DNA of 64,000 nucleotides, from contig JBMFSH010000008.1 of the NCBI GenBank assembly GCA_049967655.1, positions 39,268-103,267 on the forward strand, written 5' to 3'. The position numbers are program-made. Position 1 is the stretch's first letter; each line of letters begins with the position of its first letter. Of this stretch, positions 22,601-31,600 are shown piece after piece. The stretch comes from Acidobacteriota bacterium (GTDB lineage: Bacteria; Acidobacteriota; UBA4820; DSQY01).

Positions 22601-25600
22601 ATGTCGGAGCGCACCGTCACATCCTGGATCTGGCGGCCCACCTTCTTGGGGGTGGAGGCCTTCCGGGCGAGCCGCCCCGAAAGGCGGCTCAAGGCTACGA
22701 TCACGGCCCCCTCACCCACGGGCTTCCGAGCCTCGGCCTCCACCTGGGGGCGGATGGCGCGCGCCACCGCCGAGAGGTTCAGGATCCCCGAGGCCAGTCC
22801 CTCTTCGAGGACCGGCGCCCCCCGGACGATGCGCCCCACGGCCGCGGCGACGGTGATCATGTTCGAAATATAACACTTTTCTTCGAATCATGAAAGATTC
22901 ATCCAGATTTTTGACGTCCGCGTTCCCGCGGGCCAGAATGCGCCCTCTTGTGGAGGTGCAACATGACCGCTTCCTACGCTCTCTGCCCCGTCTGCGACGC
23001 CCAAGTCCCCGTTCCCCCGAACCCTGTGCTTTCCGAACTCCTGGTCTGCGAATCGTGCAGCGTGGCCTTGGAGGTCCGCGCGCTAGACCCCGTGGTCCTG
23101 GACGAGGCCCCCCAGGAAGAAGAGGACTGGGGCCAGTGAGCCTCACCATCCTGGACACCACCCTGCGCGAAGGCGAGCAGACGCCGGGCGTCTGCTTCGA
23201 CGTCCACATCAAGCTCGCCATCGCCGACCTGCTCGACCGCGTGGGGGTGGAGGTGATCGAGGCGGGTCATCCCGCCGTCACCGAGGAGATTCGTCGCTCC
23301 GTGACGCTTCTGGCGGCCGGGGGCCTGGGCCCCCGCGTGGGCGCCCACGCCCGCTCGCTGGAGAGCGACGTGGACCTGGCCCTCGCGTGCGGCGTCGGCT
23401 TCCTCGGAGTCTTCTACTGCGTCACCGACGAGCGGCTGGAGGACCACCGCCAGACCCTGACCCGCGCCCTGGACCGCATCGCTCGCGTCATCGCCTATGC
23501 GCGGGAGCGGCGGCCGGACCTCTGGATCCGCTACACCCCCGAGGACACCGTGCGGAGCCCCTTCGAGAACGTCCTCTCGGCCGCCACGGCCGCCGTGCAC
23601 GCCGGGGCCGACATCATCAGCGTGGCGGACACCACGGGCTTCCTGATCCCGGGGACTCCCCGAGACATGTACGGCTTTGTGGCCCGCCTGCGCGACGGTC
23701 TCGCGGCGCGCGGGGCCTTTCCCAAGATTGCCGTGCACTGCCACAACGATCGCGGGCTTGCCCTCGCCAACGTGCTGGACGGCCTTCGCGCGGGAGCCGA
23801 GGTCGTGGACGCGAGCGTCCTGGGCCTCGGCGAGCGGGCCGGCATCGTGGACCTGGCGACGCTGCTCGCGGTGCTGGCCCACGATTTCGGAGAGGCGGAG
23901 CGGTGGGATCTCACCGTCCTGCCCGAGCTCTACGATCTCGTGTCGCGCTACGCCCGCATCCCGGTTCCGGCGCACTTCCCGGTCACGGGGCGCAACGCCT
24001 TCACCCACTGCGCCGGCATCCACACCCAGGCCGCCACCCGCAACCCGCTGCACTACCAGAGCCTGCCCGCCGAGCTCGTGGGCCGGAAATCGGAGATCGC
24101 CCTCGACCACATGTCGGGGTTGGCCTCGGTCCGCCACTGCCTGGCGCTCCTCGGAATCGAGGCCGGCGCGGAGCTGGCGCGCGCGGTGCTCCGCAGGGTC
24201 AAGGATGTGGGCCAGACGGGCCGCACCGTGGACCTCATCGAGCTCAAGTACATCGTGCGCGCCCTGGAAGCGTCAGAGGGGGGATGGCGCGTTGACGCCG
24301 TCGCGACCTCGCTCGGGCCGGAGCCCGAGGAGAAGACCGGCACCTGCTGAAGGGGCCGGGCCGAAGGAGAGACGATGGTCCGCATCGGTTTTCTGCATTC
24401 CGTCATCCGACGCGAGGAGAAGCTCCTCCTCGAAACCCTGGCCGCCCAGGCCGGCGTGGAGGTGGTGCCCCTGGATGACCGTACGCTCACCTTCGCCCTG
24501 CCGGGCCGCCCGGCCGCCATGGACCTGGTGCTGGACCGCTCCCTCACGCACTCCAGGGCCCTCTACGCGCTTCGTCTCTTCGAGAGCGCCGGCGTGCGGT
24601 GCGTCAACCCCTCCCGCGCCGTCGCCCTCTGCGGCGACAAGCTCCTGACCAGCATCGCCCTGGCGGAGGCGGGCATCCCTCAGCCAGAGGTTCGGACCGC
24701 CTTCACGCCCGAGGCCGCCCTCGCCGCCATCGAGGAGATGGGCTACCCCGTGGTCCTCAAGCCCTGCGTGGGCTCGTGGGGGCGCCTGCTGGCCAAGGTG
24801 AATGACCGCGACGCGGCGGAGGCGCTGCTCGAACACAAGGTCACCCTCGGCAGCTACCAGCACGGCATCTTCTACATCCAGCGCTACGTGGAGAAGCGCG
24901 GGAGGGACATCCGCGCCTTCGCGGTGGGCGGGGAGTGCGTGGCCGCCATCTACCGGACGTCGGACCACTGGATCACCAACACGGCACGGGGAGGCGTGGC
25001 CACGAACTGCCCCGTGAACGACGGCCTGGCCGATCTCTGCGCGCGGGCGGCGCGGGCCGTGGAGGGCGACGTGGTGGCCCTCGACCTCTTCGAGGGCGAG
25101 GCGGGCTACCTCGTCAACGAGGTCAACCACACCATGGAGTTCAAGAACAGCGTGGCACCCACGGGCGTGGACATCCCCGGGCTCATCGTCCGGCACGTCC
25201 TCTCGCTCGCCCGCGGTGTGGCAAGCCTGGCCGAGGCCGCCCATGGCTAAGCTCCGCGTGGCCATCGTGGGAGCCTCCGGCTACACGGGCGGGGAACTGC
25301 TGAGAATCTTCCTCCACCACCCGAGCGCCGAGGTGGTCCAGGCCACCTCCGAGCGCCACGCCGGTCGCGGCGTGGGCACGGTGCATCCCAACCTGCGCGG
25401 CCGCAGCTCGCTCTCCTTCAGCAAGCGGGACGACCTGGCCCCCTGCGACGCCCTCTTCCTCTGCCTTCCCCACGGGGAGACGGCGCCCGCCGCCGAGGCC
25501 CTCCTGCCCATGGCCGAGCGGGTGCTGGACCTGAGCGCCGACTTCCGCCTGCGCGACCAAGCTGCCTATCCGCGCTGGTACGGCTTCGACCACCCAAGGC

Positions 25601-28600: not shown

Positions 28601-31600
28601 GGCTCTGGGAGCAGGCCGAGCGAAAGGGCGAGGCCCTCATGGCGCGCCTCGGCGCCATCCGCAGCCCCCGCGTGCGCCAGGTCCGCGGCCTCGGCCTGAT
28701 GGTGGGGATCGAGCTTCGCGAGAAGGTGCGGCCCCACCTGGACCGGCTCGCCGCCGAGGGCGTCCTCGCCCTGCCCGCCGGCCCCAACGTCCTGCGCCTC
28801 TTGCCCCCGCTGACCATCGAGGAGGACGACCTCGACCGCGTGGCCGAGGCCGTTGAGCGCGTCCTGGGCTGACCGGGAGAGAGCGCCGGCAACGGCGCGC
28901 GGCTCAGGCTCCCCGTGCCTCGCCCCCCGCGGGAATTTCGTGCGGAGCGTCTTCGGTGGGACGGCCCTAGGAGAGGTCACGGCGCCGGGTCGGCTCCACC
29001 AGAGAACCCCAGAGAGCCCCCCGTGCCTTGCCGCATCCCTGGACCTATGGTCCGTCTCGAGATTCCTCGGCGCCTCTGCGCCTCTGTGGTGATCCCTTTG
29101 CCCCTCTTTCTCCGCCGGGGCCGGGCAGGCTACAGCCCCCGGACCATGGCCTGCATGAGGTAGGGTTCGCGGGTCATCTGGCTCACCGCGCAGGCCACTT
29201 CGCCCTTGGGGCGCCAGCCCTCGCGGCCCCTGCGCCCCATCAGTCAGAACCCCTCATCCAGGAGCCCCTTCACCGCCTCCGCCAGCTTTTCGTAGTGGGC
29301 CGGCTCGTTGTAGAGCTGGGCCGAGAGCCGCAGGACCCTGCGGGGAAAGGCGGGCCAGTAGATGACGGGCACCTCCATGCGGTGCCTCTCCCACAGGGCG
29401 ACCTGGAGCGGGTCCAGAAAGAGGGGCGGCTGGGGCTTCGGCCCTGGCGCGTCGGGCAGGGGGACGGCGGCCATGGAGCCCACCATGGACTCGGGGCACG
29501 GTTCGGCGATGCGTAGGGCGTCACAGAGGAGCCGCCGGCCCCGGAGGGCCAGGGCCCGGTTCCTGGCCATCACCTCGGGCCAACCCCCCGGAAGCAGGGA
29601 GCCGAGAAAGCGGATGGCTTCAGCCACGCAGAGGTAGGGCGTGGGATCGTGGGTGCCCGTCCAGCCGAACTCCAGCAGGAAACGCGAGCGGTCGGTGCGG
29701 GGGGAGTTGGCCCCGTGGCTGACGACCAGCGGGCGCACGCCCGGCTGAAGGTCCCGACGCACGTGGAGGAGGGCGGCCCCCTTCGGGGCGCAGAGCCACT
29801 TGTGGCAGTTGCCCGTGTAGTAGGCCGCTCCGAGGGAGGAGAGGGCGAGGGGCAGCATCCCGGGGCCGTGGGCTCCGTCCACGAGCGTCTCCACGCTCCG
29901 CGCCGCCATCTCGCGAACGAGGGCGGCGACGGGCATCACGAGGGCCGTCTGGCTCACCACGTGGTCCACGAGCAGGAGGCGCGTGCGGGGGGTGACCCGG
30001 CGCAGGATCGCCTCCACGGCCGCCTCTGGCGAGGCGCCGGGAAAGGGGAGGGCCGCCACTACCACCCGCGCTCCTGTGCGGCGGGCGGCCTCCTCCAGGG
30101 CGTTGCGGCAGGCGTTGTACTCCTGGTCGGTGACGAGGAGCTCGTCCCCCGGCGAGAGCCGAAGGGAGGCCAGGACGGTGTTGACGCCGGCGGTGGCGTT
30201 CGATACGAAGACCATGTCGTCGGGATCGGCGCCGACGAAGGCGGCGAGGGAGGCCCGAGCCGCGTCCCAGAGGGGCTCCAGCTCGACGCCAAGGAAGCGC
30301 ACCGGCTCCTGCTCCATCCGCTCCCTGAAGCTTTGCTGCAGGGCGAGGACGGGCCTGGGGCAGGCCCCGAAGGAGCCGTGGTTCAGAAAGAGGACGGACG
30401 GATCCAGCCCCCAGTGGGTGTTGACCTCCAAGTCCGCCAGGCTCTCGTCGCTCATCGCTTCGCCCTCCGGCCCCGGCAGGGCCTTCTTTTTTTACTATAG
30501 CAAAGGACTAAGCGAGGCGGTTGGGGGCGAATGAGCCCCGGATGTCGAAGGCTCACGCCCAGTCCCGGGGCTTCCGGCAGACCTCCAGCAGCCGGGCCTC
30601 CTCGCTGCCGGCTTCGGGCTCGCGGGCATACTCCCATCGCGCTTCGAGGGGCAGGGACATGCGGATGCTCTCGACGCGCCCACCGGTCCTCTCGGAAGGG
30701 AGTTCCGTCCAATCGCTCGATGGCCAGACAGATCTCGTCCTGCGTCCGCCGGACGAGGGACTCCATGTTCCGGCGCATGGCGGGCATGGCCTCCATGGCG
30801 GCCTCCCACCCCTCTTTAGCCCAGTCCGGGCGCCCCGGGCTAGGGGCGGTTGGCCCTTCCGATGGGGCGCGGGCGAGCCCCTTCGCTTGACTTTCGGTCC
30901 CCGGGCTTCGAAAATCGGTTCGTGATGGATGGACAGAAAAGCATGCGCCGGGGCGGTGCGCCGTCCCGGACCCTTATGACGGAGGCGATCCATGAAAGGG
31001 AATGCCAAGCTTCTCAAGGTTCTCAACGAGCTGCTCGCTGAGGAGCTCACCTCGATCAACCAGTACATGGTCCACTCGGAGATGTGCGACAACTGGGGCT
31101 ACGGCAAGCTCCACAAGGCCATCGAAAAGCAGGCCATCGACGAGATGCACCACGCCGAGTGGCTCATCGGCCGCCTGCTCTTCCTGGAGGGCGCTCCCAC
31201 GGTCTCCAAACTCAACCCCATGAAGATCGGGCAGAGCGTGAAGGACATCGTGCTCAACGACTACGGCGCCGAGCTCGACGCGGTGAAGGGCTACAACAAC
31301 GCGATCAAGCTGGCCGTAGAGGTGGGCGACAACGGTACGCGGGACCTGCTCACCAAGATCCTCAAGGACGAGGAGCTCCACGTGGACTGGGCCGAGCAGC
31401 AACGCGACCAGATCGAACAAATGGGGCTTCAGATCTATTTGACCAATCAGACAGAAGGCGCTTGAACGAGGACGGTGGACGGCGGCCCTGGTTCACCGCC
31501 CACCGGAGGTCCCTCCATGAAGACGCAGCGAGGTCACACGGGCCGCCAGGAGACCGAGAACCCTCTCAGGATCGGGGTGTCGGCGTGCCTCTTAGGCGAG

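What a model noticed while it worked through the whole genome (the two positions that open the first line are those of the whole stretch)
22963..28872. An EgtC-like Ntn hydrolase takes the place of LysK in the LysW lysine operon
The operon lysW-hcs-lysX-lysY-X-lysZ-lysJ has no lysK. Gene X (C8:65559-66206, 215 aa, no Pfam row) is an N-terminal-Cys Ntn amidohydrolase like EgtC, which cleaves gamma-glutamyl amides; it is predicted to release lysine from LysW-gamma-Lys, a non-orthologous replacement of the M20 peptidase LysK.
Evidence so far: LysK model TIGR01902 over cut-off in 0 of 4 genus genomes and 0 of 5 other carriers; the only weak hits (3 genomes) lie apart from lysX, in G000 and G003 the ArgE-like gene of the arg operon. 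X occurs in 8 of 91 phylum genomes; in all 7 others lysX lies within 5 kb, in 5 at the same lysX-lysY-X spacing. Invariant Cys2, Arg3, HARS, NGE in 121 sequences; model pLDDT 90, best fold EgtC, TM 0.74; PDB sequence hit EgtC 2e-6. 1832 homologs, some labelled Bacteroidetes, Planctomycetota, Calditrichaeota, Woesearchaeota.
(Added by a program. Inside this text positions count along the whole contig: contig position 39,268 is position 1 of the stretch shown here. "Call 12" and the like, gene names such as g00115 and contig names such as C1 are that model's own, and its searches are not shown. The text may have been shortened before it was handed on; [...] marks where a part breaks off. The agent that wrote the report below was given it as the finding of a first reader that could run no searches.)

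Follow-up and report, generated by a model that had tools for sequence, protein, structure and literature searches.

The report
New lysine-releasing enzyme replaces LysK
Many bacteria and some archaea that build lysine on the small carrier protein LysW lack the known enzyme that cuts lysine off the carrier; they carry instead an unrelated, uncharacterised cysteine hydrolase that most likely does this job and also activates carriers that end in glutamine.

Summary
Confirmed and extended. The window holds lysW-hcs-lysX-lysY-X-lysZ-lysJ with no lysK; X (215 aa) is a stand-alone N-terminal-Cys Ntn hydrolase (best fold EgtC, Z 25). 158 of 160 X loci from about ten phyla have a lys gene beside X. 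Among 92 genomes picked by lysX in six lineages, 45 have LysK only, 44 X only, none both, 3 neither (clusters cut or split on short contigs); 0 of 94 lysX-negative genomes have X. In five loci X sits directly after lysJ, LysK's usual slot. Two new clues point to the LysW tail as substrate: X keeps the glutamate alpha-carboxylate Arg but has lost the Thr and Asp that its relatives keep (42 of 42), and LysW ends in Gln instead of Glu in 40 of 128 X-linked operons, this one included, versus 0 of 45 LysK-linked. Best reading: X hydrolyses the gamma-amide of LysW's last residue, releasing lysine and deamidating Gln-ended carriers.

The parts
22204..22860 (-). ACT-domain gene, divergent; probable regulator of the operon (inference)
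   Evidence: ACT_7 E 7e-4, under threshold; a homologue lies in 18 of 160 X loci
22911..22939 (+). sigma-70-like promoter match upstream of lysW
   Evidence: TTGACG-17-CAGAAT, 9 of 12; 1 found vs 0.1 in shuffles; consensus match only
22963..23139 (+). lysW, amino-group carrier, 58 aa, ends EEDWGQ (Gln codon CAG at 23134-23136)
   Evidence: TIGR01206 57.1 bits over cut-off 53.2; translation; same Gln end in relatives L011, L013, L091, L095, L257
23136..24350 (+). homocitrate synthase (probable)
   Evidence: best hit TIGR02146 309.5 bits, under cut-off 413.55
24375..25250 (+). lysX, LysW:aminoadipate ligase, lysine-type signature F182-I192-T203-N258S259
   Evidence: TIGR02144 over cut-off; signature read against Table 1 of PMC12998189
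25243..26289 (+). lysY (ArgC family reductase)
   Evidence: TIGR01850 382.9 bits
26292..26939 (+). gene X: N-terminal-Cys Ntn hydrolase of the class II glutamine amidotransferase fold; proposed LysW gamma-glutamyl amidohydrolase
   Evidence: fold; motifs; context and distribution
26930..27721 (+). lysZ kinase (start codon uncertain)
   Evidence: NF010659 215.5 bits, cut-off 223
27718..28872 (+). lysJ aminotransferase
   Evidence: best hit NF042418 447.8 bits, under cut-off 700; TIGR00707 over cut-off

Best explanation
X is a non-homologous replacement of LysK: an Ntn cysteine amidohydrolase specialised for the gamma-amide of the LAST residue of LysW. Steps: (1, inferred from the family) Met1 is removed, leaving Cys2 as nucleophile and base. 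(2, inferred) The acidic LysW tail docks; Arg75 holds the free C-terminal alpha-carboxylate, Asn101-Gly102 form the oxyanion hole; the pocket for a free alpha-amino group is gone (Asp to Gly116, Thr to Phe78, linker shortened), which makes room for the Trp-Gly backbone. (3, inferred) Cys2 attacks the gamma-amide of LysW-gamma-Lys, lysine leaves, water splits the thioester and LysW-Glu is recycled to LysX. (4, inferred) The same chemistry turns newly made LysW-Gln into LysW-Glu, so selection on the last codon is relaxed and it flips between Glu and Gln only where X is present. Shown here: gene context, mutual exclusion, fold, motif changes, Gln/Glu pattern. Not shown: binding or catalysis.
For: Context: 158 of 160 X loci have a lys gene next to X; a LysK profile finds nothing in them except one argE of an adjacent arg operon. 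Slot: lysX-Y-Z-J-X in 5 loci vs lysX-Y-Z-J-K in 33. Exclusion: 92 lysX-picked genomes: K only 45, X only 44, both 0, neither 3; LysK over cut-off in 0 of 50 X-picked genomes; X in 0 of 94 lysX-negative genomes. Need: G000 has no lysA, dapB or lysK; G894 and G793 hold lysW-hcs-aconitase-HICDH-lysX-lysY-X-lysZ-lysJ with no TIGR01902 candidate. Chemistry: the bond is a gamma-glutamyl amide (PMC10433800); fold EgtC Z 25.1, rmsd 1.9 over 201 residues. Motifs: Asp-to-Gly and Thr loss in 42 of 42 X, kept in 9 of 9 outgroups (register by hhalign). Gln-ended LysW: 40 of 128 X-linked, 21 changes on the LysX+LysY tree, none in the LysK part where 8.4 would be expected; 45 of 45 LysK-linked end in Glu. 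LysX is lysine-type in 143 of 144 X operons, ArgX-type in none.
Against: No biochemical or genetic test. LysK/X state changes only twice on the operon tree, so exclusion rests on few events and any other trait of these operon clades (e.g. LysX itself) could account for Gln tolerance. G000 has five M20 peptidases, and Thermus LysK also acts on N-acetyl substrates (PMC12998189), so ArgE-like enzymes might cross over. 37 of 66 X carriers (three genomes counted twice) also have lysA and 3 of 5 tested hcs-less ones have dapB: there the operon is not the only lysine route and its role is unexplained. The alpha-amino role of the Asp is recalled, not read in a paper here. Most genomes are MAGs.
Confidence: 0.8

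Rival explanations
1. X is a transamidase, the LysW analogue of ArgJ: the LysW-gamma-glutamyl thioester is resolved by aminoadipate rather than water, so lysine release and reloading happen in one ATP-free step, and LysW-Gln can be loaded directly; LysX only primes.
For: Same context, exclusion and motif data; a Cys-thioester intermediate allows acyl transfer; Gln-ended LysW would be a ready acyl donor. ArgE/ArgJ as hydrolase/transferase alternatives in arginine synthesis is recalled.
Against: LysX is kept with its GSWGR motif in 40 of 40 Gln-type and 87 of 88 Glu-type X operons, with no sign of relaxation; the closest fold, EgtC, is a hydrolase (PDB titles). Part of the sample was chosen by lysX.
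Confidence: 0.1
2. X only matures or edits the carrier (deamidates LysW-Gln, strips mis-loaded glutamate), and a general peptidase or ArgE releases lysine.
For: Gln-ended LysW occurs only with X; G000 has five M20 genes; 41 of 50 X genomes have a weak M20 match.
Against: 88 of 128 X operons have Glu-ended LysW and still keep X; it does not explain why X never co-occurs with LysK (0 of 92) or takes its slot; G894 and G793 have no LysK-like candidate. Other peptidase families were not searched.
Confidence: 0.07
3. X is a free-standing glutaminase that supplies glutamate or ammonia to the pathway.
For: Class II amidotransferase fold and catalytic residues; sources name it 'glutamine amidotransferase'.
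Against: The Thr and Asp kept by all 11 GlmS/PurF/EgtC-like sequences are lost; no step of the pathway needs ammonia (established knowledge); no reason to exclude LysK.
Confidence: 0.03

Closest known systems
LysK ([LysW]-lysine hydrolase, M20 metallopeptidase; TIGR01902, NF003367)
   Same: Same predicted reaction, same operon, in five loci the same slot after lysJ.
   Different: Unrelated fold and catalysis (Cys nucleophile vs metal); never in the same genome here; LysK-linked carriers always end in Glu (45 of 45).
EgtC (Ntn amidohydrolase of ergothioneine synthesis; TIGR03442, PDB 4ZFJ/4ZFL)
   Same: Best fold match (Z 25.1, 23% identity), stand-alone class II amidotransferase domain, cleaves a gamma-glutamyl amide (recalled).
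   Different: X scores 39.6 of 218.65 bits; EgtC-like proteins keep RxxT and TDSE, X has RSAF and xGAE; lys rather than egt neighbours; proposed substrate is a protein tail.
Glutaminase domains of GlmS/PurF and YafJ-like proteins (PF13522, PF13230)
   Same: Cys1, Arg73, Asn-Gly oxyanion hole; Z 19-22.
   Different: No synthase domain; Thr and Asp lost; NG-to-motif linker 10-12 vs 15-25 residues; X forms its own clade (SH-aLRT 100).
Pup/Dop system of pupylation (functional analogy only)
   Same: Small acidic protein whose last residue is Glu or Gln (G[EQ], PMC2588565); one enzyme, Dop, both deamidates Gln and cleaves the gamma-glutamyl amide (recalled).
   Different: Dop has the glutamine-synthetase fold; Pup tags proteins on lysine side chains, LysW carries a metabolite by its alpha-amine. 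No homology tested or implied.
ArgJ ornithine acetyltransferase (analogy for the rival reading; recalled)
   Same: N-terminal-nucleophile enzyme that replaces an M20 hydrolase at the deprotection step.
   Different: Transfers an acetyl group with a Thr nucleophile; different fold; not compared here.

Membership tests
Class II glutamine amidotransferase / Ntn hydrolase domain | Cys directly after the start Met | tested here: met
   109 of 110 rows, one gap
Class II glutamine amidotransferase / Ntn hydrolase domain | Fold of the GlmS/PurF/EgtC glutaminase domain | tested here: met
   Z 25.1 EgtC, 21.8 GlmS, 21.6 PurF over residues 2-215
Class II glutamine amidotransferase / Ntn hydrolase domain | Asn-Gly oxyanion hole and carboxylate-binding Arg | tested here: met
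   N101, G102, R75 in 110 of 110; roles from PMC7953260 and PMC7000685 passages
Glutamine-using class II amidotransferases (GlmS, PurF, YafJ, EgtC-like) | Thr of RxxT and Asp of TDSE/TDTE in the glutamyl pocket | tested here: not met
   invariant in 11 of 11 canonical sequences; Gly in 110 of 110 and Phe in 108 of 110 X; register
Class II glutamine amidotransferase / Ntn hydrolase domain | Met removal and amide hydrolysis through Cys | not testable with these tools
   needs protein
EgtC | TIGR03442 cut-off 218.65 | tested here: not met
   39.6 bits; 45.4 for the Rosettibacter homologue
EgtC | Conserved ergothioneine gene neighbours | tested here: not met
   recurrent neighbours are lys genes; no other recurrent family beyond lineage-specific ones such as nuo genes
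LysK (M20) | M20 sequence and metal-binding fold | tested here: not met
   no M20 hit for X; Ntn fold
LysW-dependent aminoadipate lysine pathway | LysW, LysX, LysY, LysZ, LysJ present | tested here: met
   (lysZ and lysJ best hits but under their equivalog cut-offs)
LysW-dependent aminoadipate lysine pathway | LysW ends in EDWGE with free C-terminal Glu | tested here: not met
   ends EDWGQ; canonical motif from PMC10433800
LysW-dependent aminoadipate lysine pathway | LysX of the aminoadipate type (F-I-T-NS) | tested here: met
LysW-dependent aminoadipate lysine pathway | LysK present | tested here: not met
LysW-dependent aminoadipate lysine pathway | Aminoadipate supply (homoaconitase, homoisocitrate dehydrogenase, transaminase) | tested here: inconclusive
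   hacA-family genes and an AksF-like dehydrogenase on C14, specificity not resolved; transaminase not searched

The most novel reading that the evidence does not exclude
X is a carrier-protein transamidase: it loads aminoadipate onto Gln-ended LysW and swaps lysine for aminoadipate on the carrier through one Cys thioester, making a cyclic, ATP-saving version of the LysW pathway, with a genetically encoded 'pre-activated' carrier; used by about half of the lysX-bearing genomes sampled here.
Probability: 0.12. Interest if true: 0.92.

Novelty: new variant of a known kind. Interest (0 to 1): 0.76.

Why it matters
It would close the last step of lysine synthesis in about half (44 of 92) of the lysX-bearing genomes sampled in six lineages, including the cultured Rosettibacter primus (WP_353677937.1) and small-genome archaea, which are now read as having an incomplete pathway; the Caldithrix abyssi genome paper names LysWXZYJ without LysK and calls for a non-orthologous displacement (PMC5317091). 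It adds a second, convergent solution to unloading an amino-group carrier, a class II amidotransferase domain retooled for a protein tail, and overturns the rule that LysW must be encoded with a C-terminal Glu. All of it is testable in Thermus or in vitro.

Tried and rejected
Earlier findings were not open. Viral contigs: one weak, unconvincing match. EgtC membership rejected (score, motifs, neighbours); the convergent PLP gene 29244-30455 scores only 51 of 400 bits on EgtE and is not among the 70 commonest neighbour clusters. An arginine/ornithine role was considered and not favoured: no ArgX-type signature in 144 operons, arg genes near X in 1 of 160 loci, as a separate operon. Weak profile hits in LysK or lysX-negative genomes (G058, G614, G667, G656, G711; E 1e-6 to 1e-21) were examined: they keep Thr and Asp and fall outside the X clade. 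Apparent X-lysZ or lysY-X fusions (P0167, P0165, P0226, P0246) read like frameshifted calls; no dedicated search for longer forms was run. No X residue tracks Gln versus Glu convincingly. Ten literature searches found no paper on this family, on a LysK replacement or on EDWGQ; the library lacks most subscription papers, including the primary LysW/LysK work, and the GapMind 2026 supplements were not seen.
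Full report
Observation. The window carries lysW-hcs-lysX-lysY-X-lysZ-lysJ on the + strand at 22963-28872, with a divergent ACT-domain gene. X is 215 aa, begins Met-Cys-Arg, has no Pfam hit over threshold and a weak EgtC hit (39.6 bits, cut-off 218.65). The genome (99.3% complete) has no LysK over cut-off; the best hit is the ArgE-like gene in a separate acetyl-type arg operon. It also has no lysA over cut-off (its hit is the arginine decarboxylase in this window) and no dapB, so the LysW route is its only visible way to lysine; candidate homoaconitase and homoisocitrate dehydrogenase genes lie on C14. 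LysX has the aminoadipate-type signature F182-I192-T203-N258S259 (Table 1 of PMC12998189).

What X is. An AlphaFold2 model from 110 sequences (pLDDT 92.5) matches EgtC best (Foldseek TM 0.75; Z 25.1, rmsd 1.9 over 201 residues, then GlmS and PurF at Z 21-22). Cys2, Arg75 and Asn101-Gly102 are conserved; in PurF Arg73 binds the glutamine analogue's carboxylate (PMC7953260, passages) and in GFAT-1 Met is removed and Cys2, Arg95, Thr98, Asn123 and Gly124 form the site (PMC7000685, passage). Two residues invariant in 11 of 11 GlmS, PurF and EgtC/YafJ-like sequences, the Thr of RxxT and the Asp of TDSE, are changed in X: Gly at the Asp position in 110 of 110 and Phe at the Thr position in 108 of 110 (register by profile alignment). 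In a tree of 42 X proteins and 9 outgroups, X is one clade (SH-aLRT 100); all 42 lack both residues and have a 10-12-residue linker against 15-25, and all 9 outgroups keep both. [quoted passage not shown] If so, X has lost the grip on a free amino group while keeping the grip on the carboxylate, which is what a C-terminal glutamyl residue of a protein presents. Sources call it hypothetical or glutamine amidotransferase.

Context. The best 80 of 511 genome loci and 80 of 477 metagenome loci were returned; record titles span Acidobacteriota, Ignavibacteria/Bacteroidota, Rhodothermaceae, Calditrichota, KSB1, Gemmatimonadota, Gammaproteobacteria, Planctomycetota, Deltaproteobacteria and Woesearchaeota. 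lysY lies near X in 146, lysZ in 145, lysX in 126, lysJ in 126, lysW in 108 of 160; 158 have at least one, the other two are contigs of 1.0 and 1.6 kb. A LysK profile finds only one argE in them. Over all fetched loci the commonest orders are lysX-Y-X-Z-J (133) and lysX-Y-Z-J-K (33); five loci read lysX-Y-Z-J-X, X in LysK's slot.

Mutual exclusion. Genomes were chosen by lysX, then searched whole for LysK and X or read around lysX. Acidobacteriota, 43 of 401 (G000 included; G196 is unpublished and is one of the 18): LysK 24, X 18, neither 1. Planctomycetota, 20 besides the centre: LysK 19, X 1. Phylum of the Woesearchaeote, 7 over cut-off besides the centre: X 7. Class of Rosettibacter, 8 besides the centre and two genomes already picked by X: X 8. 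Gemmatimonadota, 10: LysK 2, X 8. Phylum of the deltaproteobacterial record, 4: X 2, neither 2. Total 92: LysK only 45, X only 44, both 0, neither 3, the three being clusters that are cut or split on contigs of 3-5 kb. LysK is over cut-off in 0 of 50 genomes picked by X. X was found in 0 of 94 lysX-negative genomes; the two weak hits there keep Thr and Asp. G894 and G793 (1.2-1.3 Mb) hold the whole route from homocitrate synthase to lysJ in one cluster and give no candidate for the LysK model. Caveat: on a LysX+LysY tree of 190 operons the LysK/X state changes only twice, so this is a few displacements spread by descent and transfer, not 89 independent trials.

The carrier's last residue. In the studied systems LysX joins the amino acid to the gamma-carboxyl of the C-terminal Glu of an EDWGE motif, and E54A is an auxotroph (PMC10433800, passages). 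The window's LysW ends in Gln, as in its close relatives, so it is not an assembly slip. In the de-duplicated tree set, X-linked carriers end in Gln in 40 and Glu in 88 (16 unresolved), LysK-linked in Glu in 41 of 41; counting all LysK genomes read, 45 of 45. Gln/Glu changes 21 times, all in the X part of the tree, with both CAG and CAA codons; at that rate 8.4 changes are expected on the LysK branches (chance of none 2e-4, assuming equal rates). A Gln cannot be phosphorylated by an ATP-grasp ligase (established chemistry), so these carriers need deamidation, and a glutaminase-fold enzyme in the operon is the obvious candidate. A LysW labelled Caldithrix abyssi also ends in Gln. Pup likewise ends in G[EQ] (PMC2588565, passages); that Dop both deamidates and removes it is recalled.

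Mechanism. Most likely X hydrolyses the gamma-amide of LysW's last residue through a Cys2 thioester: it releases lysine (LysK's job) and converts LysW-Gln to LysW-Glu. About 0.8 for this hydrolase reading; the deamidase part is somewhat less sure, since LysX of these clades might handle Gln itself. Rivals: an ArgJ-like transamidase (0.1; LysX is kept intact), a maturation-only role with a general peptidase releasing lysine (0.07), a free glutaminase (0.03).

Against. G000 has five M20 peptidases and Thermus LysK also works on N-acetyl substrates (PMC12998189, introduction). lysA is over cut-off in 37 of 66 X carriers (three counted twice) and dapB in 3 of 5 hcs-less carriers but 0 of 5 others: in some Gammaproteobacteria and Gemmatimonadota the operon coexists with the diaminopimelate route, sometimes split, and its use there is unexplained. 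Chloroflexota, Deinococcota and Thermoproteota, where LysK is usual, were not sampled. Most genomes are MAGs, many without completeness figures.

Known work. Ten searches found no description of this family or of EDWGQ. The Caldithrix paper lists LysWXZYJ and Hcs in Cabys_3146-3153, never mentions lysK, and suggests non-orthologous displacement or an incomplete pathway (PMC5317091, passages; its one supplement had no hit); I did not check that locus for X. GapMind 2026 (passages, outline, sections 10 and 14; supplements not seen) has no lysK or EgtC mention. Also read as passages: PMC9140057, PMC11726168, PMC9026213, 10.1101/2021.12.28.474397. Most primary LysW papers are outside the library.

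Verdict. A real, widespread variant of the LysW lysine pathway with a new enzyme family in place of LysK and a Gln-ended carrier found only with it. New variant of a known kind; interest 0.76.

Noticed in passing
G000:C4:7590-10517 (-); L009: A 976-aa frame joins a glutamate-cysteine-ligase-like part to an M20 peptidase; frames of 938-951 aa with M20 hits occur in G003 and G029.
   Followed up: no
window 22204-22860 (-): Divergent ACT-domain gene that travels with the operon in 18 of 160 loci; possible lysine-sensing regulator with no curated family.
   Followed up: partly
L311-L317, L017: Small-genome archaea (1.2-1.9 Mb) carry lys clusters, several complete from homocitrate synthase on; three (G856, G800, G760) have two lysX paralogues in tandem.
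   Followed up: partly
L213, L214, L216, L219, L220: A second, more distant homocitrate-synthase type sits between lysY and lysZ in the operons that place X after lysJ; those X form a subfamily with HARSxS and GxIGSQK.
   Followed up: partly
L021, L023, L032, L041, L051, L055, L058: Gammaproteobacterial loci hold lysW-lysX-lysY-X (or less) without hcs, lysZ or lysJ nearby, in genomes with lysA and, where tested, dapB; salvage or decay.
   Followed up: partly
L354 (G711): A lysX-negative archaeal genome has the nearest non-operon relative of X; it keeps Thr and Asp and follows a 498-aa frame with no Pfam or NCBIfam hit that looks by eye like a carboxylate-amine ligase.
   Followed up: partly
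L014: The acetyl-type arg operon lies tail to tail with the lys operon.
   Followed up: no
window 29244-30455 (-): Class V PLP enzyme convergent with the operon, weakly like PvdN/SufS/EgtE, under all cut-offs; not a conserved neighbour.
   Followed up: partly
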